Shown here piece after piece: positions 12,485-64,000 of a DNA stretch of 64,000 nucleotides. The position numbers and the translations under genes are program-made. The stretch is from Lingula anatina. Taxonomy: Eukaryota; Animalia; Brachiopoda. Numbering within the stretch: the first letter of the stretch is position 1; each line of letters opens with the position of its first letter. The notes beneath the pieces are model-generated. The model made no database searches, was not told the origin of the DNA, and was given only the letters and a program-made list of their open reading frames with translations. Location of the stretch: assembly GCA_051362555.1 (NCBI GenBank), contig CM120642.1, positions 7,750,001 to 7,814,000 of the forward strand, given 5' to 3'.

Positions 12485-12732
12485 GACGGTACATAAAACG
12501 GTAGCGACTACCACAGGTGTCTTCAGTCGTAAACTGGAAGCGAGAGCGAAAGGAATATTAACAGTCTCTCTTCTCCTTAACATACTTATCCAACGGTGAC
12601 AACGGTCCAAGTGTCAGTTGCTAGCGCAAAGCCACAACAAGCAGAGGGGAATTTCACCTCACGTTGACGTTGATAGTCGGAGCGTTTTTAAAGGCGAAAA
12701 ACAGTGACAGTATTCTAACAGTAGCAGTAACC
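12485..12732 (+). promoter_or_regulatory. Core promoter and 5'UTR of ovo-A
   Basis: TATA-like CATAAAA 12492-12498 with an Inr-like TCAGTC 12523-12528 about 30 bp downstream; cluster of AACNGT motifs. Confidence 0.5.
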
Positions 12733-19829
<7,097 letters not shown>

Positions 19830-25020: not shown

Positions 25021-26004
25021 CCAGACATTTTCCATGCCGGTGTCCCTCATGTGATGTAGACAAGTGTCCTTGTCTATCTTTTAATACCGAAGAGAGGTAT
25101 AATTTGTTATTTTGTGCGCGCCGCTCCCACACAGCAACCCCCATAGCAAAATTCTGGTTCCGCCAGATGGCTTTTATGTCACTCTGCCATTTATCTATGA
25201 GCCCTGCTCAGCTGCCAACTCCAACATACAGGCACATTCTGATCCGAAAATAATTTCTTTAAAAAAGAGCCAATAAAAAAACTGACGCAATCTGCTCGAA
25301 ATATATTTCACTTCCTTAATTAGAGAGGACATGAATTGCTTAAAGATTTGGTGGTACCAAGAATACCAGCGCATGCGGCAGTGTGATGTTGAAAACGGAC
25401 CAATGACGTTATCATTGCAGCGGTGTACATTTTAAGTCCCTGGAAAAACTTCATTAGACGATAACTAAGACGTCGCGCAGGTGTATTTGAATGCTAAGGA
25501 CCTTTAATTAAATCAAATACGTCATTTATAGTACAAGTAGATTGCGCGATGGAGACTTGAACGTCATGAGTCAAAAGAAAATAAAATCAGATTACTTTGC
25601 TTTTGGAGTGGTTTGAACAGAATTAATTACACAAAAATTAATAAAAAGGTGAATGCCCTTGCAGGCCCCTATGTAATATTCAATCGATTTTCAGCTCCTG
25701 TCATACTTTTGCTCTTCTGCTATGTGAATTGTTTTCAATATGCAGCCGTGAGCACTAAATTGCGAAGGTTTTCGATTATTTTGACTTATGCACATCCAGC
25801 GTTTAACTAAGTCCAATTGACACCTACGTCAACGCAACTTTTGATGAATTCACGGCAGTTATTAAAAGAAAAATTCACAAGGAAACTTGAGGGCTTGATT
25901 TGCACAAAGGCTGGGGTTTTAGTAGATATCTTTCTCATCATAGAGGGCTTTATCTCTGGTTATGGGAATGAGTGGCAGTACAGATGGGGAAGACGGTTTT
26001 GAGA

Positions 26005-26420
26005 GGTGGAGATGAGGGTGATGAGGAATAGGGATGAGGGTGTTGAGGAATAGGGATGAGGGTGATGAGGAATAGGGATGAGGATGTTGAGGAATGGGAA
26101 TGACGGTGTTGAGGAATGGGGATGAGGGTTTTGAGGAATGGGGATGAGGGTTTTGAGGAATGGGGATGAGGGTGTTGCGGGATGGTATGCGGGGACTGAG
26201 GGATGGGATGAAAGTGTTGAGGGGTGGGGGCGAGGGTGTTGAGGGGTGGGGGTGAGGGTGTTGAGGGGTGGATAGGAAGGTGTTGAGAAATGGGGATAAG
26301 GGTTTTGAGGGGTGGGGTGATGGTGTTAAGGAGTGGGGATAAGGGTGTGAAGGGATGGGATGAAGGTGTTTAGGAGTGTAGGTGAGGGTGTCAAGGAATC
26401 GAGATGAGGATGTTGAGTGA
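26005..26420. repeat. G-rich minisatellite, ~22-bp unit (GGGATGAGGGTGTTGAGGAATG-like), ~18 degenerate copies
   Basis: Directly visible tandem units with strong G/C strand skew. Confidence 0.9.
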
Positions 26421-29750: not shown

Positions 29751-40395
<10,645 letters not shown>

Positions 40396-40660
40396 TTTCT
40401 CCTGTTCAATGAAATCTCTTGTCGTCAAGTATATACACAAATATATATGTATGTGCAGATATCTATGTATTCGAGTAAATGGTCTGGAGCTGAGTTATGT
40501 GAACGGCTCGAGTCCCGTTGCTTGTCTGCCGTGGTGAATGGTTGTCGCCGCTTTTAATTTAGGTAATTTCTGATCGGCCCTAGGCTCAGTGATTGGTTGT
40601 CACCCATGAGGGGCTGCCAGTTACCCATATGCATTAACAGTCGCGACTGACAACTGTGAA
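40396..40660 (-). promoter_or_regulatory. Core promoter and 5'UTR of ovo-B
   Basis: Minus-strand TTAAAAGCGGCGACAACCA (40557-40539) resembles ovo-A ATAAAACGGTAGCGACTACCA; CCAAT box at 40592-40596; TAACAGT at 40635-40641. Confidence 0.45.
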
Positions 40661-45442: not shown

Positions 45443-47181
45443 GGAAGGGTGGGCGAAAGAAACATGTGAAATAATTACTAAAATCTTGTCTAAGATCCAA
45501 TGTCGTGTCCTAGATCATGTGAAAGATAACAAAGGTGAACACATACTATAAATTCCATCATACTGTTTATTCCATCAATACAAAATTAATCACATAATAA
45601 CTAAATAAAGCTGCCGACTTAGCACTGTATCTGCCTGTTTATCATTTGCTTATATGAGTATTCCTATTGTTAACAGAACAATGAAGTAACGCTTTTTATA
45701 CGTGTCCCATGTATTGTTGTTGATTACCAGTTATTCACCAAAACGCAAACAGAACGACGTACGTTAAATGTGCGGTTGCTTTTATTTGTATTGAAACTTT
45801 GTGGCCTTATTCATTTCTATATCAAACGGTAGAGGAATCTAACATGCCTATCTAAGAAGGAAGTCACCACACACTTTGGATTTTAGGGGCCGATTTCTAT
45901 GCTTTTAGGTACCTTGTATAAAAGGCAGCCGTTAAGAATTTGATATCGATAATTAAATCAATCTTCAGATATGTCCCCTCTTTCCCTGACATATTTCATT
46001 AAATCTCTGCTTGTTACTCACCCCAGTTTCCACTACCCCTGTATACAACTTTGCAATATAAAGAGGAATTTACATATTGATGCCAGGAAGACCCCTCCTA
46101 CATTTCTTGGCATTATTTATTAATTTATTTATTTGGTCTGTATAAACGCAACTTGCTTTTACTATCACGTTCATCAGGTTAATACCCAAAATGCCTACCG
46201 TCGTTTCTATATCCTGCTGCTTCCATACGATGTCTTTGAACATACATTCTTGGTTACAGTTAACTTAAATGTAAAGTTTCCAGACTGTCTCCCAGTTTTA
46301 AATGCCCATTCTCAGAATTCGTCCACTTACGTCCGAGATCAGGTCCACGTTGAAAACGATAGGCAATCAAAACAAAAAAAATGTCTTGATTAAAATAAAA
46401 AACATTTAGCAAAGAGCTTTCGAAATATGTTGAAAGTGAAATGATATTTATTAGGATAAAAATAAGGGCTCCCCCTCCGACCCCCCCCCCCTCGTCCCAC
46501 GTCGACAGAAAGGTGTGCGAGAACGTGTTTAACTCTAGTGATCTTGAAGTAAATGAAACATAACAGTTTGGCTCATGAGCGTTTTTTTCTCTCTTATTAT
46601 GAAAAAGAAGCTTAAACTATGAGAGGGATATTGGCGATTCCGTTTTGTGATGTGAAGGGCTAAGAAATGCCCGGGATCCTGGATATTCTTTGTCTGTGTG
46701 GCTTCTTCGGACTTCATGAAATATCCAAACCTTAGAGCTACAGTCTATGATTGCGTTAGATGCGACAGCAAAAAATTGTGCACTCGCCTCTCAACAATAC
46801 CATTCCACAATTTCCTGTAAGCCATCCCCGTTATTAAGTTTTTGGAGCGGGAATCGATATCTCTTGTCAGTAAAACCCAGTGTAAAGGGGCCTTTAGGTT
46901 ATCTGATTAATTGAGACAAAAAGTCTGGTTTTGAATGCTGCTGAAAGAAACAACACGCAAAACAAGGCAGTTTTTCAAGTGTGTTATTGTTATTAATTTA
47001 GGGGAATGGCATATCGTATTTCAACGTGTACGTTTTGCAATCCCACATTATCACTCTTGACAAATATCTTTACATAGACACTTACCACCCGTTTTAGAAT
47101 AATCAATGTAAGAGTCATTTCACAGTCTTTGGCTGCCATGAAGTCTGCCTGTTCATAGAATGAACATTGATCATATTTTAA

Positions 47182-47516
47182 AGGGATAACAACTGTTCGT
47201 AAGATATCCATATTTCACAATAAATACATTGAAACTAACTCATAGAAATACAATAATTTCTATTTTGCCTCCAAATCGGCGGTTAACACAATTATTTTAA
47301 CATTTGTACTTGCCATGACATCACGTGATTTCCATAGATGGCTACACTCTGTAATAATCTCTTAAGAGATTATTACAAAAAACCAAACTTAAAAAAAAAA
47401 CAGGGACTAAATTTGAATGTGGGAATGGATTCACTTACAATTGGTAAGTATGGGAAAATTGTCCTTTATCCCAGGAAAATTAATTTTTTGGGCTAAAATG
47501 AACAGTTGTTATCCCT
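47182..47516. mobile_element. Kolobok-like MITE with perfect 17-bp TIRs and a TTAA TSD
   Basis: AGGGATAACAACTGTTC (47182-47198) and GAACAGTTGTTATCCCT (47500-47516); TTAA on both sides; paralogous empty site with a single TTAA at 58532-58535. Confidence 0.9.
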
Positions 47517-48073
47517 TTAACTAAAGACTTCTGGATATTTTATGTATATGCTTTTACCATTTACAAGTGCAGTTGAGGTTAAGAAAGAGAAAATGTCAGC
47601 TGACTGAAATTTTATAGAAAAATAGTTAATTAATTAAGATAAGCCTACCATACATGTATATTTTTCATATTCATAGTTTTCTTCGATGTCTTTTTATTTT
47701 TGTCTCATTATTCTGTCTCTCAGAATCTTTGAGCTATTTCCTTGGTGTAATATACAGTTTTCAATGCAGCATATAGCACTGGTTGTCATCCAAGATAATT
47801 AATAGGCCCAACTAATTTTAAGTTCTTCAAGGTACATTTCATTTACTATCATTGAAAATTATCAAATTAAATCAGTATTTCTAGGCAACCGACAACAACG
47901 TAATAAAAACGTGGCAAGTGAAAAATTTACAAATTACCCGTCCTCATGAGCCTACAAGTAATCATTTTGTATAGTTATCAAAGTCTTATAATTAAAATTA
48001 AAAGTTATTTTAATTAGAAGTTCTTGAAATAGAAAAAGAATTAAGTGCGCAAAGCAATGGAAATGTCATTAAA

Positions 48074-49730
48074 CACCCAAAACCCAATATAGTGGTGAAT
48101 TTCACATGCCGAGCTGTCAAAAAATAGAATTAAATCAATTCAAAGTTGTATTAAATTTTTTAAAACATGAATGTGTATAGAACAAAAATCCACGACTGCC
48201 TCAATTTTAAATGAATTTTTAATTTTTATCTTGTCTTTATATTAAGCCTCTCTTACAACCCGTCGTGCGTGCTTAGAGATCGTGCGTCCTCGGAGTGCTT
48301 GTCAGACGTAGCGTTGTTGCAGGATGAAAATTAAATCGCAGCGGACGTAAGTAGTAAGTCTTTTATGAGTAGGTGTGTCGTGCTCTAAACGTGAGGCCTG
48401 CAAGTGGTCTGTACGCCTTTTTTTGGAAGTAGGAAGAAGTAAGGAGCACGTACGATCAGTACTTGTGTCGCACACAGTGAGTGAGATAATCATGCGTGTA
48501 TTGCAAGTGAAGCGTACGTTTTCAGAAATCGTACTTACGAAGTAAGAGAAACGTAAGATAAGAGAAACGCAATGAGCACGGAAGTGGAACGCACGGATAA
48601 TCAAAATAATATAAAAGGGAGCACCGAGTCTCTTCATCATTCACTGTTTTGGCTTCCAAAATGGCACTTCCAAGAAGGATGCGCCATCGACTTCTACAGC
48701 TGCTAATGCTAGAGGAGGCCGAAGATCGTGACGCAATGCTGGCAGTGATTGCTCGGGATCGCCTGCACTTTTATCGTGCTGGGCACGTGTGTCGTCTTAG
48801 TGTGACGCACTTCACAAGTATGGTAGTAGTACTCGCCACGCACTTTGGAAGTAAGATAAACGCACGGAGGAAGTGCGCTCACCCCCCTTTTTGTTAACAC
48901 GTACATTGAAAGCAAGTTGAACGTACGAGCCTCTTGCGTGGTAAGTACGTCTTCGTGGTAAAATACCCCGGAATTTCTGCATGCTTTTCCTGCGTTACAC
49001 GAACGCCTAGCGCACTTACTCAGTACTTTTGTCTTGCGTGCTACGAGCGTGCTCCAGGCGTTCTAATTGTCGCAGACAGGTCGTAGCGAAAAACTGGCCG
49101 GCCAGTTTTCGGGCTGCGTGCTTTTCGTCATGTTTGCGTCCACCAAAAAAAGTACGTTCCACGCGCGTGTATCTTACTACTTGGCCAATTTTTTGCACGC
49201 AAACCGCTCGTAGAAGCACGCACGTTTTCTGTTTTCTGTTCCTGGCCGAAAAATATTTTGTGATTCCATGATATACATGTAGTTTGATATTTCTGATATA
49301 ATATTTGGTTCACAAGAAGAAAAATAGTTTATTTAATGCTTATTTTACTATCGGTAGGGCGTATTTCCCCGTCTTTTCAATGACAAGCAAACTAAAGTCG
49401 CTCAAAACAGTTAACTGTTCTATACAGAAGATTATCATAGTTTTTCACAACGTTATATTTGTGGGAGATAAATAAAAGAACAAAACCAGTGATTATTGAA
49501 TTTTCAAAGTGAGTAAAACAAAACTTTTTGCATTTGTGCCAGTAACGTATGTTCCTTTTTCGGGTTAGAAAATGAATTACTTTTGATTTTCCATGGTTCC
49601 AGGAGAGTGGAACTTTGATACAAACTTCTTCACGTGACGTAGTTTGCAAATTTGTGCACTTAGTATTTTTAAGAGCGTCCCTGTGTCTGTGACCTTGTTT
49701 GCACCTCTAAAAAAAATTATTGGGTTTGGA
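48074..49730. mobile_element. ~1.65-kb insertion just 3' of FAMeT-domain gene copy 1, containing a nested CpG-rich (possibly PIF/Harbinger-like) element at ~48244-49224
   Basis: Absent from the homologous flank of copy 2 (58805-58830). Short inverted ends CCAAAACCCAATA 48077-48089 and TATTGGGTTTGG 49718-49729; inner inverted 11-mers CGTGCGTGCTT 48264 and AAGCACGCACG 49214. Confidence 0.6.
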
Positions 49731-49769
49731 TAAAGCGTTATTAGACAACTATCTTCCAAACCAAGCCGT

Positions 49770-52700
49770 TTAGTTGTACACGATCCAGTCAGCTGTGTAA
49801 CCGAATCCTGTGACAGCGTGTATTTCCGTCACCTCATTAAATTGTTCCTTGTCCCACCACATGCTCGTTTGCAATCCGGGGACAGTGCCTCGTCCAATGA
49901 CTATAGTGGACGCCGTCGCATTCCATTTTAACCAGAAGGGATAATATTTCTCTGAACTTATGAGGTCGCGACTTACAAAACCACTTATATGGGCGTAGCG
50001 GTCGTATATGCCCGGGATATTTAATACCACGGCGGGATAGATACTCGAAGTGGAGGAGTGCTGGTAACAGCAGGTGATTATGAATGTGAAAACATCTTTT
50101 CCACGCTCTCTGATATTAATGTATACTTCCTCGCCTGAAAATTGAAACAGAATAGTTTAAATTAAAAATGAATGACAAACATACTAGAACATCAGACAAC
50201 ATACCCTTATGTTTTGCTAGGGTAGTGTAAATCTATTAAAAATCATGACAGGTGTTGCCCATGTGGCGAAATTTGATGCTGAACACAAATATGACAATCA
50301 ATAATTTCTCCAACTATTTAGGTAGGAGAAATGACAATTTTCAAAATGACGGCCAAAACGGCCTACCTTTCATCAACAACAATAAAAGGTACTTTAGTGC
50401 GTCATATGTCTTTTCTTATGTTTAAGGGGTTGTAGAATCCAATTTTGATGTTAATACTCAGGTTGGTAGGCCTAGTTTTTACAATGAGTTCAGTTAGCAT
50501 ATGAGTTAACAGTTAGCCTAAATGTCAAGCTAGACTGAAGAGCAGCTGCCCCCCCCCCCCCCCCCCGGGATTTGAGGTGCAAAAAAAATAATGACAAAGG
50601 TAAAAAAAAAAATTGCAAAGTTGGTATCAATTCTGTGAGAAAATGCACTCATGGCCACTAGACAATCATTCAACAATCTGTTAACAAAGGAGTAGGCCTA
50701 CTGTTTTTAGCCAACTCACTTCATGCCAAAAAGCTCACCCTCCCTTAGGGAGCTATCCCCCAAGCCAATTGGCGTGTTGTGTTGAAAAAAATGACTGTAG
50801 GCTACTTATGGCAAAATGAACCCACAATTTCTGACTTCTGATTGAGCAATAATTAACAGTAAAAATGCACCAGAATGCAGTATTATACATACAGTTTTTT
50901 AAAAATTTTCCACACCGTGGGAGGGGGACACCCCCTCCCACCCCCTACCCCCTCGGGCTTCGCCCCCTTGTGTCTTCTTACTGCCCCCCCCCCCCCCCCC
51001 CCCGGCATTTTGCTCAGGCTACGGCCCTGGTACCCTACCCAGAAGTGATGATATATGTTACTGTTTCGGGGTGTTCACTCTGCATTTCATCAAAGAGCGG
51101 TAACAGTAAAATATATTTTGTGGCGGCGGTGAAATCAATGTAGCGGCATTTGATAACAACCTTTTAATCCACATTGTTTTTCCTGATCCCGCTAGTGGAT
51201 CTCGCTAAAAGAGCGGTAAAAGGGCGTTTTAGATGTGTCTCGTACATGTCCAGAAGTAAAATTGGCATTAATCTACTTGTCGGGTATACTTTATAACTTT
51301 TACCACGTGTTATACACCATCGATATTTTATTTCCTATTACAAAAGTTTGGCAAGGATGCAGCACTATTTCTTGCGTCGAAAACGATGTATACTGCTCAT
51401 CGATAAATACATCAGGTACTTTATCAAGATAAGCCGACGTTGCAATGGTTGACTTTTGCATCACTGTCTCAAGTTATCATATTCTATGAGTTGTAACATT
51501 AAACTAATCAATATTCGACTGCATAGCTCACACATATCGTTACCCATTTAACCTCCCCTTCAACGTTTTAATCATCGATAACACCATTTTCTTGTCAACA
51601 ATCATACTTTAATAGCTACATAATATAAAAGTACATAATAATTTCAGTAGTCTATAACATAAAGTTTGTTGCTCGTGTCAGACAAATAAATTCCCATATT
51701 TCTGCTAGTTTATGCTGGGCGTCTTCATTTATCATAACCTAATCTGAAATAATAAAAAACATCGACTGATTACCTTGTTATCATTAAATTATACAGCTTA
51801 TATTAGGCTTTTTTATGTTTAACTAGAAATGTACTCCGAGAGCGCAGACCTCCGCCAAGGCAGCCAAGTCTCCACCCAATGTCGTTTCAACCCTTAATTT
51901 TATTCTATAATGATTTAGTTTTTTGATTATTGATAATTTATTATTGATCGATTATTGATTGATTATTGATCCGGATCACCACCAAAAACAAATAATCTAT
52001 TCCTTGGCCCACTTAGTTTTTTTAAAATTTTTTTCTTATTGATTATTGATCCGGATCACCACCAAAAACTAATCATCTGTTCCTTGGCTCACTTCTGACA
52101 GTTTCATCAAAATCGCTACATAACTTAGTTTTTTATTTTTGATTATTGATTGAATATTGATCCAGATCACCACCAAAAACTAATCACTTCTAAGTTAACC
52201 CATTTCTGACCTATCCTGAAAATTCCATCGAAATTCATCCATAACTTTTTGAGTTATGTTGATGACAAACAGACAGACAGACAGACAAACAGGGGTGAAA
52301 ACATAACCTCTTTGGCGGAGGTAACAAAGAAAAAGGATACACACTTCATTAATACCCCCCCCTCACTCCCCCTTATATATATTACCATTGTCATTTCTTA
52401 CTGCTCCGCCACATCTTCTTCCACGGACATCTCCTCCTCCACATCTTCTTCTTCCACAGACATCTCCTCCGCCACATCTTCTTCTTCCACGGACATCTCC
52501 TCCGCCACATCTTCTTCTTCCACGGACATCTCCCCCGCCACATCTTCTTCCACGGACATCTCCGCCACATCTTCTTCTTCTACGGACATCTCCTCCGCCA
52601 CATATTCTTCCACGGACATCTCCCCCGCCACATTTTCTTCTTCTACGGACATCTCCACCGCCACATCTTCTTCCTCGGGCATTCCTTCCATCGCCGTCCC

Positions 52701-54510
52701 ACCAGCATAAGGCTCCACCTTTTTACAAGAAAAAAGTATTCAATTACGCATTGCACACCATCGTATTACAACATATGACTACAACTAAAACATTAATATT
52801 CTTAGCACTGTATATACAAGCACTAGATAAATAGTATAGTAATTTTAACATTATTTACATATGTAAAGATAGTTGAATTAATAGATAACTGACCTCTTCT
52901 TGTAGATCGCTGCATCTCCAGGCAAACTGCTCCACAAGTAGCCGGCCCAACAATGGATCCCTGTAAACGGGTGACAAGGTCCTGTTGCTTATAGAAGCAA
53001 TATTCTTCACAATGAAATCTAGGCACCACGTCCGGAGGGACGTGCACCCCATCCTGTGTGCTAAAATCAGTACATTTGTCACGTTGGTGACATCCAGGTT
53101 GTGTGAGACTGTTATCTCACACTTCTCCTGCAGACTACGTGCATTGTGGGCCATTCTGGCGGGGGCGGTGTCAGGGACTAACACATGGTTCGGATCATCA
53201 ACGTCTTTGCCAAAATCTTCCAGCAACGATGCAGTCATGATGACGGAAAGAATGTATGTATGCTCTTGCTGCTTCAGTTTTTGTTTCAGCAACTTGTAGG
53301 CCTTCAGTATTGCCCCATGGCTCACAGCAGCTTTTGCCCTGGTGAAGTAAGTATGTACCGAAACCGACCAGTCGGCCATACACCCATCCATGTGATGCTT
53401 TTTGGAACCATGGTCGGCAATACACCCTGTGCAATACCTTTGACGCATGGCCAGTATTTCTTGCACAATTAACGTCACGTAAATGAGACGAACTAATGCT
53501 ACGTCTGCCTCTACGTCGTTCTCTGCCCTGCTTTTGTCGTCATCCGTTGCCATGCCAATACATAAACATTAGATCGACATGCTCATTCCTGCCCAGTGAC
53601 GTCATCTCGTTGCCATGGTAAAACATAAACAAAAATAGGGAGTCTACTTCGTTTACTCCCGGAAACGTAAAAAAATGTGGCCGCGGCTGGTTAAGTTTAA
53701 CGCAAAGGCAAGCAGTGCACCTGACGTGCACTGGAGGAAAAGTGCACGGCATTTGGGAAGTTTTTAACTTTTGTTTTAGAGAAACACCATTTCTGTCCTA
53801 GCGTTTTTGAAAAAACTGTAAGACAAAATCTGCTCACCATATGAGTAAAGAATATGAAAAAAATTGGGGGGTTGATGCAGCTAGTCTTTCAGAGGTAGCG
53901 TCCCGAAAAGCGTCACGTTTATTAAATTTAGTTATATGGGGATTTTGCCAAAATATAATAGGACCTCCTTAAATCAAGATCTAGACTTTAAATATATCTT
54001 ACCTCTCACGTCAAAACGAACACGGTCCCGTCTGGAGAGATCAGATATGGGAAACTTGATAGAATAATTGATGTTATCCGGAGTGGAAAAGTTGAAAGAA
54101 GATCTTGTAAAACCTAGAAATAAAGGTAGTTAAAGAGATTACAAAATTCATAGAAATAAAACCCTCTTTAAAAGGTATTTATTTTTCCCACAGAGCACAC
54201 GAATTTTTATTACTGTATTTTATTTAATATAATATTTTCAATAAATTAAAAGAAGACAAACTACTGTAAAACATATACCTATGCTTAATGTTATTTGATA
54301 TGAATCGCTGACGCCCATGTCCATGAGACTTACCAATTCTTACTTCGCTTGATTTACTTGATTTACTGGCAAGTTCTGAAAGCGAATATTGTTGGATATA
54401 ATAGGAATAGCGTGCATTATTGGGCAAAATGTTCTTTTAAAGTACATGTTGACGTTAATTCTTTGGTGACATATATCAACGATAAAGAGGCACTGTAAAT
54501 GATTTCCTTC

Positions 54511-54543
<33 letters not shown>

Positions 54544-54926
54544 CATACTAATAATAATAATTTTTCCAGAAACGCGTATATGTTGTTTGTATTACTTTGT
54601 TATTTCAGAAAAAAAGCTTTTTCCAATTTGTTTCGAGAAACTTCTGCTACTTGCCCGACACCACGATTCCAGTTATTCCACTGACTATCAAAAGAAGTGC
54701 CAAGGCTGCCATCAGCTTCAGTTTTACAGTTAGTTTTCCGGCCGTTCCACTTATGTCACTCCCTTGTGCACGTCGTTCTTAAAAACAAAACAATGATGAA
54801 ATCAGAAAAAGACGGAAAATTGTTTTAGGTTACATGGGCACCAATTGTCTAAACACCACAGCAACGTGGTATATACGGACTCATTTAAAACATCAAATAA
54901 TATTTTGTATTAGAGTTATATGGTTT

Positions 54927-54963
<37 letters not shown>

Positions 54964-55422
54964 TACTGACCGTAATATGTTTGTAAGGAAACTTACCATT
55001 TTTGGGGAAATCGCCAGGAATAGTGTCATATAAATCTCCCCAATATTGGTCATCATCGTGTTTCACAGCACATCCTACGGGATTACCACCTCCAGAGGAA
55101 CGCATATTTAGTGTGCAGAGATGTGATTGAAATAAAAAAAAATCTTCCTGCCAATTCTTAAGCCAACTTGGACAGTAGCATAAATACAAAGACACAACCA
55201 CCACTTCTAGGTAGTTACAAAATAACATGATAAGTTTATTACAGCTTATATGATCTCTTTCTTTCCAATTCGATTTTTATTGTGTTTAATATGTTTGTAA
55301 GTAAACTTACCATTTTGGGGGGAATCGCCAGGAATAGTGTCATATAAATCGCCCCAATATTGGTCATCATCGTGTTTAACGGCATATTCCACGGGATTAC
55401 CACCTCCATAATAGGAGCTCAT
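49770..55422 (-). CDS. Type II membrane protein with a C-terminal FAMeT-like (Methyltransf_FA) domain, copy 1 (~235 aa; duplicated first coding exon; GC donor)
   Basis: Exons 55105-54997 (or duplicate 55422-55311), 54777-54655, 54113-54003 and 50134-49770, all phase 1, open frame. TM MAALALLLIVSGITGIVVSG; domain motifs TPD..Y, RFDVRG, DLISSEKYYPFWLKW, IVIGRG, WDKE, TGFGYTADW. Confidence 0.75.
50542..51029. mobile_element. Truncated inverted copy of the hAT5-like MITE seen at 5193-5597
   Basis: Ends in AGGCTACGGCCCTG at 51029; internal sequence matches the reverse complement of 5200-5560; the other TIR is missing. Confidence 0.8.
51821..52325. mobile_element. Helentron-associated non-autonomous element (HINE/DINE-like)
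   Basis: Subterminal inverted repeat ACCTCCGCCAA 51848-51858 and TTGGCGGAGGT 52312-52322; (GACA)n microsatellite; three internal repeats GATCC(G/A)GATCACCACCAAAAAC. Confidence 0.7.
52398..53553 (-). CDS. Nested gene: CxxC..DH..H..C motif domain + BACK-like (BTB C-terminal) helical domain + acidic repeat tail (232 aa unspliced or 326 aa spliced)
   Basis: ORF 53553-52855. Donor GAG|GTCAGT at 52894/52893 and acceptor TTTTCTTGTAAAAAG|GTG at 52719/52718 join it in phase 0 to ORF 52718-52398 (EEEDVAEEMSV repeats). LQEKCE..SHNLDVTNVTNVLILAHRMGCTSLRTWCLDFIVKN matches the SPOP-type BACK pattern. Confidence 0.6.
52404..52680. repeat. Minisatellite of ~30-33-bp units (TCCTCCGCCACATCTTCTTCTTCCACGGACATC), unit lengths multiples of 3
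   Basis: Directly visible; the reading frame is preserved across all units. Confidence 0.9.
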
Positions 55423-56226
55423 ATTTGGTGTGCAGAGATGTGATTAAAATTTAAAAAAATCTTCTGTCAAAATAGTCTAAAGTCAACGTGGACAGCCAGA
55501 CAATGACAGAACTGCGGTATGTAGAGATGGGATGAGATTATACATACCAAAAAAAAAAAATGAACTCATGGATCAATGACCACTTGTAGGAACTTATAAG
55601 CTAGTTCTATATACATATATATGTATGCTCAGTGTTTGGTTTCATCAGCATAGTCCATTTCTCTCGTGTAACCCGAGATTTGTGATGCCAGTATCACGTG
55701 CACGTTTTAATCGCATTATATAAATGTAATGAGGTCTGAAACAAGATACTCACTGCACAGAATTGCATTTTCTTCACAACGAAACGGATTTTATCATTTT
55801 ATCATGTATGTTTTTATAAATTTATTTGTTCTCGAACATTTCTGATATGCCTAAAAGATAGTGACCGTGCGCACACAGAGGCTATTATAAAAAGGAATAT
55901 ACATGTACATGTGTAACTGAAAACTCCACCCTGCAAGTCTGAAGCTGCCATTTTCTCAAGGGCAAAATGCCAGGAGTATGGTGATCGCGGGAAACCCTCT
56001 GTTTGTTTCAATCAATGGCCCGATTTTCAAGAAAACAATTGTAGTTTAAGTTATGGGCATATGTGATTATAGCATGTTTTGAATCTTACAAAACGATATC
56101 CATGTTAACATTCTCAAAGCAGATTATTAGTCCGCATTGTTGGATCTGGAGAAAGACAAGCATGTACATGCATATCTATTTCTGTTTGATTCTTTACCTA
56201 TTACATTTTTTCATGCGAGCGACTGC

Positions 56227-56261
<35 letters not shown>

Positions 56262-58354
56262 CTGACATTTTTAGCAAGAGTTTATTTCGGCTGAAACAAT
56301 CAAATTTGCAAAATGAGTATTCCTGTACTTCGTGCTTTAAGCATTTAAATGCTCAGTGTTTCAATTTCTCCACATTGTTCTTTAACATTTCTGTAAGCCG
56401 AGATTTATGATGCTAGCATTGCATTTTGATCGCATTATATAAATGTGATGAGATCTGAAACATGATGCTTACGACACCCATTTGCAATGCCTCGTGTAGT
56501 TTTTTTTTACAACGAACCCGATTTTACCATTTTATCATGCATGTATAATTTATTTATTTCATTATTATCAAACATTTCTGATATGTGAAACGAGGTGCTA
56601 AAATGATGAAAACACGCCAAGAGATCTGCTATCCACCAATTACATTTTAAACCGGTGGCAAGTAGGGGTCTTAAGCTGATCGTTGACGAATGTTTTTTTC
56701 GAAAAGAATAAATGCTCATCAAAATCTTGATCACGAATACATTTTTTCTTGATACATACCCAGGGATGTTATGTGCCCGTGGCGATATGCTGAACACTGA
56801 AGCCTGTCCATTTAGCCAAGTTTCAGTGAAGATGGAGAGCAACCTACAGCCGCTACCGAGAAATATCTCGCTTCACTCGACATTTCCTTGTGGCATCTCT
56901 CGGAAAACTCGGATTTATACTCGATGTAGTCTAGAATTTCACGACTACATCTTGTGGGTTAAGTCAGTCGAGGTCTCTAAAATGCTGAAAGCCGAAGACA
57001 GGGCTTTAGAAGAGAATAGTGGCTTTGCTTCCGTTATATACCTAGATAAATTAAAAATCTCCCACACTCTTAAAATTAGCATAAACTTTTTACGTTCAAC
57101 AATTATTATCTATCATTTTATTAGTTACACCAAGTCATATCATATGGGTATGGTTTAAAAACGGGAAAATTGCATACGAAAAATATTTGTTAATCTATAA
57201 CTTTTTAACGACTGTTGTGTTATTTACCTTTAATGTATCTTGGGTATCTTTAATGCCTGTGTAGCGTCTTTTGATTTCATGAAAGGAACAAACCTTAGAT
57301 CGACAGTCTTGATTGTCTTAGATGCGAGATGCGACAACAAAAATTGCGCACTCGCTTCTCAACAATACAATTCCACATTTCCGGTAAGCCATCCCCATTA
57401 CTAGTATTAAGTTTTTGGAGCGATAATCGATATCTCTTGTCAGTGAGACAATTTGATTAATGAAGACAAAAAGCATGGTTTTATTTGAATGCAGCTGAAA
57501 GAAATAACACGCAAAACAGGTCAGTTTTCCAAGTGTTTGACTGTAATTCATTTGTATGGGAATGTCGTATCTTATTTCCACGTATGCATTTGACCAATTC
57601 CATATTATCAATCTTGACAAATGTCATTACATAGGCAGTAACCCCCCCCCCCCCCCCCTTTTAGAATATCAGTGTAAGCGCCGTTCTGTAAAACAAACAG
57701 CTTGAATACTGAAAAAAATGTTTATTCCTCTTCTGAACACTTTGAACACCGTAAAAACCTTGATATCCAATCCGTATACCGTAAACATGTACAGAAACAA
57801 ACTTATATCTTTTAAGCTTTCCTAAGCTGACAAAAAGTCCACAATGGTTTTACATACTATCTGGTTCCTACATGTACGGGTATTTATTTGGACAAATAAT
57901 CCACACTATACGGCCTTATACAAGACTGTACTCTTATTAAAAATCCGAGTTTCCCCAGACCTGTTCATGCACCACATACGTATAATGGCACATTTTAACA
58001 CTCAAGCGAAATCCAGCATGGGACGCCCTGTGTTTACTCTAGATTGTGACAGCAGTATGCAATCACATCCAGTCGCACTCTTACACGTGATAGATTTCTA
58101 GTTCTTTTTGGTCAACAAATTTCCACTCTGTATGTTTATTCGGGACCGTACTATTATTAGATTCTGAGCATTTTCCACCCTATACTACTATTCCAAACCG
58201 TATGGCAATTAGGAACTAGAGAGTACACTGACTAAACCGTCCACTGGCTATCCGCGACTGACCTTGCCGTCACGACCGCGAGAACTACTCATGCAGTGAC
58301 CAAGCGCAAGAGATACGGGTCATTTCACAATATTGGCCACCCTGGAGACTACCT

Positions 58355-58503
58355 TGGCTCCGTAACGCAAAAGCATCGCGAACTGCGATTGCGATATCAC
58401 CTTTCACTTCCAGTCTATTATATGGGGCGAGTAAATGCCGAGTTATGGAATAGAGACGCTTGCGCTCGGTCGCAATTCGCGATGCTTTCGAGTTACGGAG
58501 CCA
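58355..58503. mobile_element. Small foldback element/MITE with ~34-bp imperfect inverted repeats
   Basis: TGGCTCCGTAACGCAAAAGCATCGCGAACTGCGA versus the reverse complement of TCGCAATTCGCGATGCTTTCGAGTTACGGAGCCA (4 mismatches). Confidence 0.6.
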
Positions 58504-58858
58504 TGTACATAGCAGGCACATTGATCTTATTTTAACTAAAGACTTCTGGGATTGTTATGTATATACTTTCACCAACTACTTTCACCAATACTTTCACCAA
58601 CCCCTACAACGTAACAAAAAATTCTTCACATGCTGCCATCAAAAAGTATTTATTTATTTTTGAATGTGGCTTGTGAAAATTTTTCAAATCAGCCGTCCTC
58701 ATTGGCCTACAAGTCACCATTTTGTATAGTTATCAAAATCTAATAATTAAGGTTAAAAATAATTTAATAATAAGTTATGAAAGTAGAACAAACAGTTCTT
58801 ATGTAAATGGAAATGTCCTGAAAGCGTAACTAGACAACTGTCTTCCAAACGAAGCGGG

Positions 58859-61303
58859 TTAGTTGTACACAATCCAGTCAGCTGTGTAACCGAATCCTGT
58901 GGCGGCGTGTATTTCAGTCACCTCATTAAATTGTTCCTTGTCCCACCGGATGGTCGTTTGGAATCCGGGGACAATGCCTCTTCCAATTGCTAAAGTGGAC
59001 GCCGTTGTGTTCCATTTTAACCAGAAGGAATAATATTTCTTTGAACTTATGAGATCCCGACGCACAAAAGGAACCATGTTTGCGAAGCGTTCGTAAATGC
59101 CCGGGATATTTAATACCATGGCGGGAAAGGGAATCGGAAAGGGAAAATGCTCATAACAGCAGGAAATTATGAATGTGAAAACACGTTTTCCACGCTCTCT
59201 GATAATGATGTATACTTCATCGCCTGAAAATTGAAACAGAAAAGTGAGAAATAAAAATGAATGACAAACATATATCAGGCAACATATCCTTTTGTTATAC
59301 ATAGTACTAGTGCGTTCATCTATTATCTGGACCAAGTGGCTGAAATAGTAGAGTGCTTGCCTCTGTTGCAGAAGGTCGTGGGTCAACCCCCGGCCGGGTC
59401 ATTCCAAAGACCATCATAAAAATGGTACCCTTTGTCTCCTTGCTTAGCACTTAGCATATAAAAGTAGGGAACAAATTCTGACAACTTTTCTTATTACAAA
59501 GGGTTAAGAATGAACCAGTTTAAAAAGTGTCACTATAATTCGCGTGTTTCTACTTATACTATTTGACGTGTAACAGCCAACAAGTGACCAGCCACATTTA
59601 TCAGCTAAGTTCAGACACACTTGCGACTCAGTGAGATTCTCCGGGCTTTCGTGTTCTTATTAAGACCAGATAAACGAGGAAATATTAATCTCGGTCAGTA
59701 GTGGTCTTAAAATGTTTGTCCTTTTTAGAATTTCCTTGATATTATGGACATTGTTTTTTCCATGAATCGCTAGCAAAAGATTTTTTAGAAATGTGTGACA
59801 AATAATACTGCTTCCGGAAACGTAAAAAATATGGTCACGGTTGTTTAAGTTTCCTGCAAAGGCAGCAGTGCACCTGACGTGCACTGTGGAAAAGTGCACT
59901 GCATTTGGGAAATTTTAACTTTTATATTGAGGAGGCTCTCTGATATTTGAGAAACACCATTTCTGCTCTGGCGATTTCGATAAAAATTGTAAGATAAAAT
60001 GTGGTCACCATATGAGTCAAAATTATGAAAAAAATGGGGGGGGGGGGGGGGGTAATCCAGCTGGTTTCCGAAAAGCGTCACTTTTATTACATTGAGGTTT
60101 TTGCCAAAATGACCCTCATTTGGCAGAAAAATGTAAAAAAAAAAATCTGCCCTACCTCTCTTCTCCTAATATGAGAAAGCCTCCTTGAATACACGATCAA
60201 GACTTTAGATGTATCTTACCTCTCACGTCAAAACGAACACGGTCCCGTCTGGAGAGATCAGATATGGGAAACTTGATAGAATAATTGATGTTATCCGGAG
60301 TGGAAAAGTTGAATGAGATTCTCGTAAAACCTGGAAACAAATAAAGGTGAAATTAAAGAGAACAACAAAATTCAAAGCAATCAAACCGCCTTTAACGTAT
60401 TTATTTCTTCTCACAGAGCACACGAGATTTTTAGTGTATTTTATTTATTTTGTAACATTAAGGAAACACGTAAAAACGGCACTTTTCAATAAATTAAAGG
60501 GAGACTAACTGCTGTAAAATATATACTATGTTTAATGTCGTTTGATATTAAGAGTTGACGCTCGTGTTCCTGATACTTACCAATTCTTGATTTACTGACA
60601 AGTTCTGAAAGCGAATATCGTTGAAAAATTGAAATAGCGTGCATTATTGGGCAAAATGTTCTTTTAAGCTACATGTTGACGTTATTTTTGTAATGTTTTC
60701 ATCAACTGTAAATTTTTTCCTTCAATAATAATAATAATAATAATAAACTTTTTCAGAAACACCTACATATATTTTGTATTACTTAGTTATTTTAGAAAAA
60801 AACATCTTCCAATTTGTTTCAAGAAACTTCTGCTACTTACCCGACACCACGATTGCAGTTATTCCACCGACAATCAAAATAAGTGCCAAGGCTGCCATCA
60901 GTTTCAGTTTTACAGTTAGTTTTCTGGCCGTTCCACTTATGTCACTCCCTTGTGCACGTCGTTCTGAAAAACAAAACAATGACGAAATCAGAAAAAGACG
61001 GAAAATTGTTTTAGGTTACATGGGTACCAATTGTCTAAACACCAAAGCAACGTGAATTTAGTACACGGATAGTGGTATATGGACTCATATAAAGCACCAA
61101 ATAATATTTCGTATAAGAGTTATATGGTTTTTACTTTGTCCATTGTGTGTGTGTGTGTACGTGCTGACTGTAATATGTTTTTAAGGAAACTTACCATTTT
61201 TGGGGAAATCGCCAGGAATAGTGTCATATAAATCGCCGCTATATTGGTCATCATCGCATTTTACAGCATGTTCAACGGGATTACCACCTCCAGAGGAACA
61301 CAT
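58859..61303 (-). CDS. Type II membrane protein with a C-terminal FAMeT-like (Methyltransf_FA) domain, copy 2 (235 aa)
   Basis: Exons 61303-61195, 60963-60841, 60330-60220 and 59223-58859 (708 nt, canonical GT-AG, all phase 1). MCSSGGGNPVEHAVKCDDDQYSGDLYDTIPGDFPKN..RKLTVKLKL-MAALALILIVGGITAIVVSG-FTRISFNFSTPDNINYS..TGFGYTADWIVYN. An additional upstream exon cannot be excluded. Confidence 0.8.
59329..59470 (+). mobile_element. Degenerate tRNA-derived SINE fragment (central domain resembling Meta/MESC-type SINEs)
   Basis: A/B-box-like head (TGGCTGAAATAGTAGAGTGC..GGTCAACCCC) followed by CGGCCGGGTCATTCCAAAGACC..AAAAATGGTACCC..CTCCTTGCTTAGCACTTAGCAT; absent from the other gene copies. Family assignment is from memory. 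Confidence 0.6.
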
Positions 61304-62104
61304 ATTTGGTGTGAGAGATTGAAAGAAAAACTTCCTGCCAATTCTTAAGCCAACCTGGACAGTCTCATAAAAACATTTTAATGCTCAATGTTTGGTTTTA
61401 TCAGGATTGCTCTTTTCTGTTTCGCACGCCGAGTTATATGATGCCAGCGTCACGTTTTAATCGCATTATATAAATATGATGAGGCTTGAAACATTATTCT
61501 CACGCTTTTATAAATGTTATTGCTCTCGAACATTTCTGATATGACAAAAAAATAGTGACCGTGCGCACACATAGGCTATTATAAAAAGGAATATACATGT
61601 ACATGTGTAACTGAAAACTCCACCCTGCTAGTCTGAAGCTGTCATTTTCATTTTCAGTCAGAAAAAAACAAATAGGAAGAGCTGCACCATCATGAAACCT
61701 ACCAAAGACAGACAGAATATTAAATTTGCTCTAGCCCGCAAGAGGACAGCCGTTTCTGTATAGCTCAAGCACATCTGAACCACAGTTTGACCCTGAATCT
61801 TCAACTGCCCTGAATCTTGCCATCTCACGGCTAAATGCCGGAAGTATGCTATATGGTGATCGCGGGAAACCCTATGATCAGTCTAATCAAATATTTCTAA
61901 CAAAATTTGAAAATGAGTGTTGTTTAAGTTATGGGCATATGTGAATGTACCATGTTTTGAATCTTACAGGGCGATATTCAAATTTACACTTTCAAAACGG
62001 ATTATTATTCCGCATTGTTGGATCAGTGTTGGAAAAAGACATACACGTACATACATATCTATTTCTGTTTGATTATTCACCTAATAATTTTTCTAATGCG
62101 ACCC

Positions 62105-62142
<38 letters not shown>

Positions 62143-63443
62143 AAGAGTATATTGCAGCCGAAACAATCAAATTTATAAAAGTATTCCTGTACTTTCTGCT
62201 TTCAGCATTTGAATGCTCATTGTTTGGTTCTCTCAGCATTGCCCTTTTCAGCACTGCGTTTTAATGGCATTTTACAAATGTGATGAGATCTGAAACATGA
62301 TGCTCACGACACCCATTTGCATTGCCTCATGTACTTTTTTTTAACAACGAACCCGATTTTACCATTTTATCATTTATTTATTTCATTGTTATCGAACATT
62401 TCTGATATGTGAAACGAGGTGCTAAAATGACGAAAACAGAGATCTGCTATCCACCAACTACATTTTAAACCGGCTGCAAGAAGAGGTCTGAAACTGGTCG
62501 TTGGCTATCGTTTTTTGAGAGAATAAATGCTCATCAAAATCTTAATCACGCATGCATTTTTACTTGTTAAAACACAAATGAGCACATCGATGTTATACAT
62601 AAATAGATGACCATATATTTACAGGTTGGACATCACGACTGTCTGTTATGACGTATGCTACATAAAGTTTCAAAATATCGTAACCCGCGATAGTAGCCCT
62701 GACTTCATTGTGATAGATGCGACAGGTAAAATAGCGCACTCGCCTCTCAAAAATACAATTTCATAATTTTCGGTAACAGTCGTACGCTTTAACCATAAAG
62801 TTCTTGGAGCGGGAATCATATATCTTGCAGGTTAGCCATTTACAAGATGAAGACATAAGGCATGCTGTATTTAGATACGGATGCCGTAGGTTGCACAGTA
62901 GTGGGCGCACAGGTGGCTCACAGTTTTATAGGTAAAGTTCAGATTCGGTCGTCCAAAGGACGAACAAGGGACGCAGAAGCATTTACACTGGGACACGATT
63001 TAATTGCTTTGGCGACCATTGATTGGCCTGACCACAATTTTGATCGTAGATGGGACACTGAAAGAACGCCTTCCAGTGAAAAGGGGGCTTAAAGGAATTT
63101 GTTCTACGTACACGGTGTGATCTAATTAAGAGTGTGATAAATGTTGAATCAATTCATTGCAATCTACACATTCCTAACTACAAGTGTGTGCGTGTATTGA
63201 ATCAAGTGCGATACACGCATAATAACTTGCATACACATGTGCTAAGCGAAACTGGTATTCCAGTAATTTCTCCTTTTCGACAAAATTCGACGTGAGCTAG
63301 TTAAATGTTAGTATTTCTAACCATGTGACATTTTACCAAGCGTGTACCTTTACTGAAGAAGGTATCATCAAAGCGTTACCAGGCAACTGCGTTGCGTCTC
63401 TAGTGAACCAAGTGCTAATAACGTCTTCCAAACCAAGCGCGGG

Positions 63444-64000
63444 TTAATTGTACACAATCCAGTCAGCTGTGTTACCGAATCCTGTGGCAGCGTGTATTTC
63501 CGTCACCTCATTAAATTGTTCCTTGTCCCACCGGATGCTTCTTTGCCATCCGGGGACACTGCCTCTTCCAATTACAATAGTGGACGCCGTTGTATTCCAT
63601 TTCAACCAGAAGGAATAATATTTCTTAGAACTTATGAGGTCTCGAAATTGAAATGAACTAATATGTGTGTCGTTGTCATTGATTCCCGGGATTTTTAATA
63701 TCATGGCTGGACTGGTGATGTTCAAATCGACGGCATACTGGCAACAGGTAATGACGAACGCGAAAACACTTTTTACACGTTCTTTTACTATGATGTTTAC
63801 TTCATCGCCTGAAAATGAACACAGAATTGGATGAAATAAATATAAATCATGATCAGATATTCAACAACAAAATTACAACGAAGTCACGATGAAAACTTTT
63901 TTCGTTCTTCGTACCTTTTACGTCAAAACGAACGCGGTCCCGCCTCGAGAGATCAGATATGGGGAACCTGACAGAATAAGTGATGTTATCCGGTGTGGAA
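63444..64000 (-). CDS. FAMeT-like domain gene, copy 3 (3' part; runs off the right edge)
   Basis: Exons 64000-63915 (partial; STPDNITYSVRFPISDLSRRDRVRFDVKG) and 63808-63444 (365 nt, same length as in copies 1 and 2); 106-bp intron. Confidence 0.8.

What the first reader, a model, noticed from the sequence alone, without database searches (positions are those of the whole stretch)
49770..64000. Tandem family of type II membrane FAMeT-domain proteins with a cytoplasmic Tyr motif: candidate undescribed receptor system
Seen: a four-exon, all-phase-1 modular architecture. A ~58-aa N-terminus with DDDQY(S/W)GDLYDTIP precedes a basic stretch (RKLTVKLK), then a ~20-aa hydrophobic helix, then a ~155-aa domain with N-glycosylation sequons (NFS, NYS, NTT/NAT) and vicinal cysteines. 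Known: the Methyltransf_FA domain also occurs in extracellular CPAMD8 and in DM9-repeat proteins, and its methyltransferase activity is doubtful. Type II topology with an acidic YxxI/L motif is the layout of hemITAM C-type lectin receptors, and YDxV/I-P resembles Nck SH2 ligands. Inference: a signalling or endocytic recognition receptor rather than an enzyme.
Basis: partly seen in the sequence, partly recalled or inferred. Interest (0 to 1): 0.75.

Follow-up and report, generated by a model that had tools for sequence, protein, structure and literature searches.

The report
Membrane-anchored FAMeT genes with tyrosine tail
Three tandem, intact gene copies in a marine invertebrate (one cut off by the window edge) are predicted to encode small membrane proteins that show a diverged "FAMeT" module outside the cell and a tyrosine docking motif inside, so they likely act as recognition receptors rather than enzymes, but no RNA reads cover them yet.

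Summary
Two complete 235-codon gene models and one partial copy lie on the minus strand, with three phase-1 introns and no stops. The outer domain is a divergent Methyltransf_FA/FAMeT homologue: it misses Pfam's cut-off, but 8 of 9 database hits are FAMeT proteins and it aligns over the whole domain. It is under purifying selection. The tyrosine exon is probably translated: it has the only perfect donor upstream of the membrane exon, and it lacks the frameshifting indels common in the flanks (P about 0.012). Charges and sequons favour type II topology. The tail is not a hemITAM: the acidic triad precedes Tyr21 (YxGD), while YxxI sits at Tyr26. Against: 8 of 9 RNA runs, 87.9 million records read, show no exon coverage or splice joint. 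No close relative was found, folds failed, and no ligand or partner is known. Verdict: a real, lineage-restricted new arrangement of a known domain. A receptor role is plausible but untested.

The parts
61195..61303 (-). Copy B exon 1 (coding part): ATG, acidic Tyr motif, donor G|GTAAGT, phase 1
   Evidence: predicted, no RNA
60841..60963 (-). Copy B exon 2: rest of the predicted cytosolic tail, basic stretch, hydrophobic helix (residues 58-76)
60220..60330 (-). Copy B exon 3: first part of the FAMeT-like domain, two sequons
58859..59223 (-). Copy B exon 4: rest of the FAMeT-like domain (CC, variable patch 138-171, conserved FWxxW core) and stop
55311..55422 (-). Copy A duplicate exon 1: intact Tyr exon, 3 nt longer; likely alternative first exon or spare duplicate
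54997..55105 (-). Copy A exon 1 (coding part) with the Tyr motif
54655..54777 (-). Copy A exon 2 (membrane helix); GC donor
54003..54113 (-). Copy A exon 3
49770..50134 (-). Copy A exon 4 and stop; intron 3 is 3.9 kb against 1.0 kb in copy B
63915..64000 (-). Copy C exon 3, cut by the window end
63444..63808 (-). Copy C exon 4 and stop; the only exon with a (sub-threshold) Pfam PF12248 hit

Best explanation
These are intact tandem duplicates predicted to encode 235-residue type II membrane proteins that display a diverged FAMeT-family domain outside the cell and likely act as recognition receptors through a tyrosine motif in a 58-residue inner tail. Shown: open frames, domain homology, purifying selection on the domain, one hydrophobic helix. 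Inferred: exon 1 splices to exon 2 and is translated; the helix is an uncleaved signal-anchor; the glycosylated domain binds an outside ligand with its variable Cys-Cys patch (residues 136-171), which replaces the family's conserved G..N loop; clustering lets a Src-type kinase phosphorylate Tyr26 (DLYDTI), which would dock an SH2 adaptor or, unphosphorylated, serve as a YxxΦ uptake signal. Expression would be confined to a tissue, stage or challenge not sampled here.
For: Intact frames and all-phase-1 exons. FAMeT homology: 8 of 9 phmmer hits carry PF12248; global profile alignment 97.8% over 139 columns. pN/pS 0.44-0.45 against copy C, Fisher p about 5e-5. Exon 1 carries the only perfect GTAAGT donors upstream of exon 2 (1 of 10 candidate donors for B, 2 of 10 for A). 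No frameshifting indel in the 174 nt before Met59, against 30 in 1182 flanking columns, P about 0.012; the one indel among the three exon-1 copies is 3 nt. If exon 1 is spliced, 6-7 ATGs precede Met59. Basic residues number 3-4 before the helix and 1 after it; all sequons lie after it. FAMeT activity was never reliably shown (PMC10015273), and FAMeT domains occur in secreted proteins (PMC9382459, PMC6003135, PMC9363628). Lophotrochozoans use Tyr-tailed lectin receptors (PMC13027682). Src, Nck and AP-2 motif preferences are recalled, not tested.
Against: No exon coverage or exon joint in 8 of 9 runs (44.5 and 43.4 million records, 6-30% of each run; tissues unknown, no control gene laid). Exon 1 is no better conserved in DNA than intron 1 (90% against 92%), and its pN/pS of 0.66 is not significant (p=0.50). 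The indel test assumes an even rate, and introns here are rich in homopolymers. A plain YxxΦ appears in 33% of shuffles of the tail. The variable patch shows no excess of replacement changes (pN/pS 0.63-0.79). No relative with this layout was found. Met59 onward also reads like a cleavable signal peptide ending V-S-G (by eye; no SignalP run).
Confidence: 0.45

Rival explanations
1. Secreted or shed matrix protein: translation starts at Met59, or the helix is cleaved after V-S-G, releasing a single FAMeT domain for shell matrix or adhesive.
For: Abalone shell protein UP5 is signal peptide plus Methyltransf_FA (PMC6003135). FAMeT genes rise in mussel shell repair (PMC8194122) and occur in sea star footprint proteins (PMC9382459). 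The helix ends in a small-residue pattern.
Against: Exon 2 has a strong acceptor and stays open 5' of Met59 in both copies; the nearest perfect donor ends an ATG-bearing in-frame exon; no frameshifts there. Long N-domains usually block cleavage (recalled).
Confidence: 0.17
2. Type II membrane-tethered structural or adhesion protein whose tyrosine tail only sorts the protein, or does nothing; no signalling.
For: The same topology evidence. A membrane-tethered FAMeT protein with a very short tail exists in Mytilus (P0006). YxxΦ is common by chance.
Against: Residues 24-32 (DLYDTIPGD) are unchanged in all 3 exon-1 copies, while 11 of the other 24 aligned codons vary (a post hoc choice, and synonymous sites there are unchanged too).
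Confidence: 0.17
3. Silent, recently inactivated or dispensable duplicates: the frames are intact because the copies are young.
For: No exon reads in 8 of 9 runs. No close relative among 1.84 billion representatives (best hits 25-33% identical). Copy A has a GC donor and a 3.4-kb intronic insert.
Against: Three copies, synonymous divergence up to 0.36, no stop or frameshift, significant purifying selection on the domain.
Confidence: 0.11
4. True hemITAM receptor signalling through Syk, like CLEC-2 or oyster CgCLec-HTM.
For: Predicted type II layout; DDD at -4 to -2 of Tyr21 matches the triad position (PMC3576117); oyster hemITAM lectins use Syk (PMC13027682).
Against: Tyr21 is followed by xGD, not xxL. 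Tyr26 has YxxI but only one acid among positions -2 to -4.
Confidence: 0.08
5. An ecto-enzyme with farnesoic acid methyltransferase activity.
For: Only the family name.
Against: Activity never reliably shown, and the fly mutant leaves hormone levels unchanged (PMC10015273). The family's conserved G..N loop is replaced. The domain is predicted to face outward, away from SAM (inference).
Confidence: 0.02

Closest known systems
Methyltransf_FA / FAMeT domain proteins (PF12248): arthropod FAMeT, CPAMD8, abalone UP5, sea star Sfp proteins, Lingula XP_013402294
   Same: Collinear domain of about 155 residues, with TP near the start, FxV(R/K), FWxxW, GxG and TGxG..W; often extracellular; function unknown (passages of PMC10015273, PMC9382459, PMC6003135, PMC9363628).
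   Different: Below Pfam's cut-off; G..N loop replaced by Cys-Cys and a longer variable patch; a single domain behind a predicted internal anchor with an N-terminal Tyr tail. None of the 8 FAMeT hits has that layout: one has an N-terminal hydrophobic peak at residue 1, one a C-terminal helix, six none.
Mytilus coruscus CAC5426635.1 (P0006)
   Same: FAMeT domains with a predicted membrane helix.
   Different: Opposite orientation: two domains, a Thr-rich stalk, a C-terminal helix and a tail of about 7 residues without tyrosine.
hemITAM C-type lectin receptors (CLEC-2, Dectin-1, CLEC9A; oyster CgCLec-HTM and CgCLec-TM1)
   Same: Works like them in outline: short acidic Tyr tail, one helix, one outer recognition domain. 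Type II topology and gene clustering of the mammalian receptors are recalled.
   Different: The outer domain is FAMeT-like, not a C-type lectin; the triad and YxxI are on different tyrosines; no Syk link tested.

Membership tests
Methyltransf_FA (PF12248) | Pfam score at or above 24.2 bits | tested here: not met
   Exon 4 alone: 13.5 bits (E=0.062) for C, no hit for A and B; exon 3 of B no hit. The spliced domain could not be scanned against Pfam.
Methyltransf_FA (PF12248) | Homology to curated members | tested here: met
   8 of 9 phmmer hits carry PF12248 above cut-off. A profile of 37 domains cut from those hits scores the models 42-46 bits, locally over the C-terminal half; global hhalign 97.8% over 139 columns. 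The profile came from hits of copy C, so it is not fully independent.
Methyltransf_FA (PF12248) | Conserved G..N loop after the YEIVI strand | tested here: not met
   G and N are at least 70% conserved in 37 family domains; the window copies have I-T/S-C-C plus a longer patch.
Methyltransf_FA (PF12248) | Same fold | tested here: inconclusive
   Models at pLDDT 30 (P0002) and 46 (exon 4), strands almost throughout; no fold match.
hemITAM receptors | YxxL with acidic residues at -2, -3 and -4 | tested here: not met
   Definition from PMC3576117. Tyr21 has the triad but YxGD; Tyr26 has YDTI with W/S-G-D before it.
hemITAM receptors | C-type lectin outer domain | tested here: not met
   No lectin hit in Pfam; the domain is FAMeT-like.
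hemITAM receptors | Syk recruitment on clustering | not testable with these tools
   Needs a binding or cell assay.
Type II membrane proteins | Single internal hydrophobic helix, positive-inside N-terminus, sequons on the C-terminal side | tested here: met
   (hydropathy and charge counts; no DeepTMHMM or SignalP was run).
Type II membrane proteins | The N-terminal exon is spliced and translated, and the anchor is not cleaved | tested here: inconclusive
   Indirect support; no reads.

The most novel reading that the evidence does not exclude
A brachiopod built a new receptor family by anchoring the orphan FAMeT module in the membrane behind a two-tyrosine signalling tail and expanding it in tandem with a variable binding loop: a parallel to vertebrate C-type lectin receptor clusters that would show FAMeT to be a ligand-recognition domain.
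Probability: 0.25. Interest if true: 0.75.

Novelty: new variant of a known kind. Interest (0 to 1): 0.45.

Why it matters
FAMeT is a misnamed, widespread animal domain (arthropod FAMeT, human CPAMD8, shell and adhesive proteins) whose function is unknown. A small single-domain receptor with a tyrosine tail would give it a direct readout: a chimera or reporter assay could be used to look for its ligand, and natural paralogues differ mainly in one loop. It would also add a receptor layout to invertebrate recognition systems. Until a transcript is seen, it remains a predicted, lineage-restricted gene family.

Tried and rejected
No whole genome was held, so the array could not be counted beyond 64000. 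Run search: no RNA holder was listed; the 9.4-kb query may hide a small RNA, so this is no evidence. Word-based protein searches found nothing: B exon 4 at 66-210 aa and the three-copy alignment at 211-2000 aa (weak evidence). The third search was wasted, since it covered only 30-47 aa, so other type II FAMeT proteins were never screened properly. The Atlas gave no answer. PDB sequence searches gave nothing below E=0.8. The one metagenome locus, L001, is a bacterial membrane-protein gene sharing a short word, and was rejected. P0004 has no FAMeT domain and was left out of the profile. Positive selection on the variable patch is not supported. Read-through joining of the two exon-1 copies of A into a two-motif tail needs a weak purine-rich acceptor (sequence) and was set aside. 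Paper searches that found no description of this layout: farnesoic acid + methyltransferase domain + transmembrane + echinoderm (0 papers, run before the taxon was suspected); Methyltransf_FA (5); farnesoic acid + FAMeT + lectin + immune (17); CPAMD8 + methyltransferase + fold + lectin (8); Lingula + farnesoic acid (1); PF12248 (2); FAMeT + AlphaFold + transmembrane (1). Most were seen as listings only, and the library lacks most subscription journals. No supplements were opened; those of the shell and adhesive proteomes may list membrane-bound FAMeT proteins.

Full report
Setting. The window is AT-rich eukaryotic DNA (GC 33-44%); no whole genome was held. Unreviewed notes on other pieces of this genome call it a brachiopod (Lingula-like). 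I did not test that; the best protein hit is from Lingula but is only 25% identical.

Observation. Three related units lie on the minus strand. Copies A and B each splice, on paper, into 708 nt and 235 residues without a stop, through three phase-1 introns. Copy C shows only exon 3 (cut) and exon 4. A and B are 82.6% identical in protein. A FAMeT profile finds no fourth copy in the window. The array may continue past 64000.

The outer domain. Pfam gives only a sub-threshold PF12248 hit, for exon 4 of copy C (13.5 bits against 24.2); A and B have none. A search of 1.84 billion representatives with C exon 4 gave 9 hits at E up to 0.001, none at 1e-10; 8 of the 9 carry PF12248 above its cut-off. 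A profile of 37 domains cut from those 8 scores the spliced models at 42-46 bits over the C-terminal half, against at most 5.7 bits in shuffles. A global profile alignment covers 139 columns at 97.8%, with exon 3 supplying the start of the domain. The family's conserved G..N loop is replaced by Cys-Cys and a longer patch (138-171) that is 35-53% identical between copies, against 83-89% for residues 172-235. The domain is under purifying selection (pN/pS 0.44-0.45 against C, p about 5e-5; 0.50 for A/B, p=0.011). The patch is diverged at synonymous sites too (pN/pS 0.63-0.79), so positive selection is not shown. Folding failed (pLDDT 30 and 46), and fold and PDB searches were blank.

Is the Tyr exon translated? 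Exon 2 has a pyrimidine-rich acceptor, so it needs an upstream exon. Of 10 candidate donors between copies C and B, only the one ending exon 1 is a perfect GTAAGT; of 10 for A, only the two exon-1 copies are. Between A and B, non-coding flanks have 30 frameshifting indels in 1182 aligned columns, while the 174 nt from the first ATG to Met59 have none (Poisson P about 0.012). The only indel among the three exon-1 copies is 3 nt, whereas the 70 nt upstream of the ATG carry non-triplet indels. If exon 1 is in the message, 6-7 ATGs precede Met59, the first in frame with A at -3. Against this, exon 1 is 90% identical between A and B, no more than intron 1 (92%), and its pN/pS is not significantly below 1 (0.66, p=0.50). 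I put translation of exon 1 at about 80% if the gene is expressed.

Topology. There is one hydrophobic peak (58-76), with 3-4 basic residues in the 15 before it and 1 in the 15 after; all sequons follow it. That is the type II pattern. Met59 onward could also serve as a signal peptide ending V-S-G; no dedicated predictor was run.

The tail. PMC3576117 (abstract and passages) defines a hemITAM as YxxL with acids at -2, -3 and -4. Here Tyr21 has DDD exactly there but continues xGD, and Tyr26 has YDTI with one acid in those positions, so the definition is not met. DLYDTI resembles Src-family substrates and Nck-type SH2 ligands and is also a YxxΦ sorting signal (recalled). A bare YxxΦ occurs in 33% of tail shuffles; an acid-rich version defined after seeing the motif occurs in 0.14%, which is not an independent test. 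Residues 24-32 do not vary among the three exon-1 copies.

Expression. Nine raw-read RNA runs with the same species label were listed; 8 were laid. At 93% likeness over 49400-64000 (4 runs, 44.5 million records), depth fell on homopolymers and repeats. Bins holding exons 1 and 2 of B and exon 2 of A were zero, and none of the 15 joints shown (29 more were hidden) is an exon joint. The low depth near exon 4 of A in two runs coincides with variant-bearing reads at 49538-49561 and 50291, outside the coding exon. At 80% likeness on copy B (4 other runs, 43.4 million records), exon bins were zero or 0.01 and no joint was found. Only 6-30% of each run was read, tissues are unknown, and no control gene was laid. 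A rough estimate puts the genes below about one transcript per million in these samples (inference).

Comparison with what is known. PMC10015273 (passages) says that FAMeT activity was never reliably shown and lists arthropod layouts (two domains, or with DUF3421). Passages of PMC9363628, PMC6003135, PMC8194122 and PMC9382459 place the domain in CPAMD8, abalone shell matrix, mussel shell repair and sea star adhesive, the last stating that its role is unknown. PMC13027682, a review (passages), describes oyster C-type lectins with hemITAM tails that signal through Syk. PMC12388509 (passages) lists a FAMeT up-regulated in infected tick midgut; its membrane protein is a different one. Among the 8 FAMeT hits, one Mytilus protein has a C-terminal helix; none has an internal N-terminal anchor with a Tyr tail. 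Seven paper searches showed no report of this layout (mostly listings only). The screen of other FAMeT proteins was small, so novelty is likely, not shown.

Mechanism and verdict. Most likely (0.45) these are type II recognition proteins: an outer FAMeT-like domain binds a ligand through its variable loop, and Tyr26 couples binding to an SH2 adaptor or to uptake. Only the gene anatomy, homology and constraint are shown; splicing, topology, ligand and signalling are inferred. Rivals: secreted matrix protein (0.17), tethered protein without signalling (0.17), silent duplicates (0.11), true hemITAM receptor (0.08), enzyme (0.02). Novelty: new variant of a known kind. Interest 0.45.

Noticed in passing
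window 52401-53553 (-), inside intron 3 of copy A: A 220-codon frame with a Cys/His motif (CxGC...H...H...GC) and a weak BACK_BPM_SPOP hit (E=4e-4, below cut-off) can splice in frame to an acidic 30-33-nt tandem repeat, giving 326 aa. It lies in a 3.4-kb stretch absent from copy B, without clear terminal inverted repeats; possibly carried in by a mobile element. A few reads at most.
   Followed up: partly
window 18186-19826 (+), 29754-33098 (-), 40105-40494 (-), 12657-12920 (-): Two convergent C2H2 zinc-finger genes that look like ovo/shavenbaby (name recalled; Pfam zf-C2H2). Both have candidate first exons with an MPRAFLV start (recalled as SNAG-like; for the + gene in 12625-12906). One zinc-finger exon is 99% identical between them over 201 nt while the next is 74%, which suggests recent gene conversion.
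   Followed up: no
window 54736-54772 and 60922-60958 (-), start of exon 2: RRAQGSDISGTA matches Pfam MHC_I_C, the MHC class I cytoplasmic tail, at E=0.018 and 0.04 over 13 residues, below cut-off. Probably chance, but it lies in the predicted cytosolic tail.
   Followed up: no
window 55678-55754, 56397-56473, 61428-61504, 62232-62308: A 77-nt element with a TATA-like run occurs twice upstream of exon 1 in both A and B (family D14); candidate promoter.
   Followed up: no
window 53997-54088 and 60214-60305: 92 nt of exon 3 and its donor are 100% identical in A and B while the flanking introns are about 87% identical; possible gene conversion.
   Followed up: partly
window 46676-48037, 57237-57647, 58663-58791, 62707-62827: Stretches downstream of copies A, B and C resemble one another at 75-81%; they may mark the duplication unit or be dispersed repeats.
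   Followed up: no
window 25943-26417: A 22-nt G-rich tandem repeat, about 20 copies.
   Followed up: no
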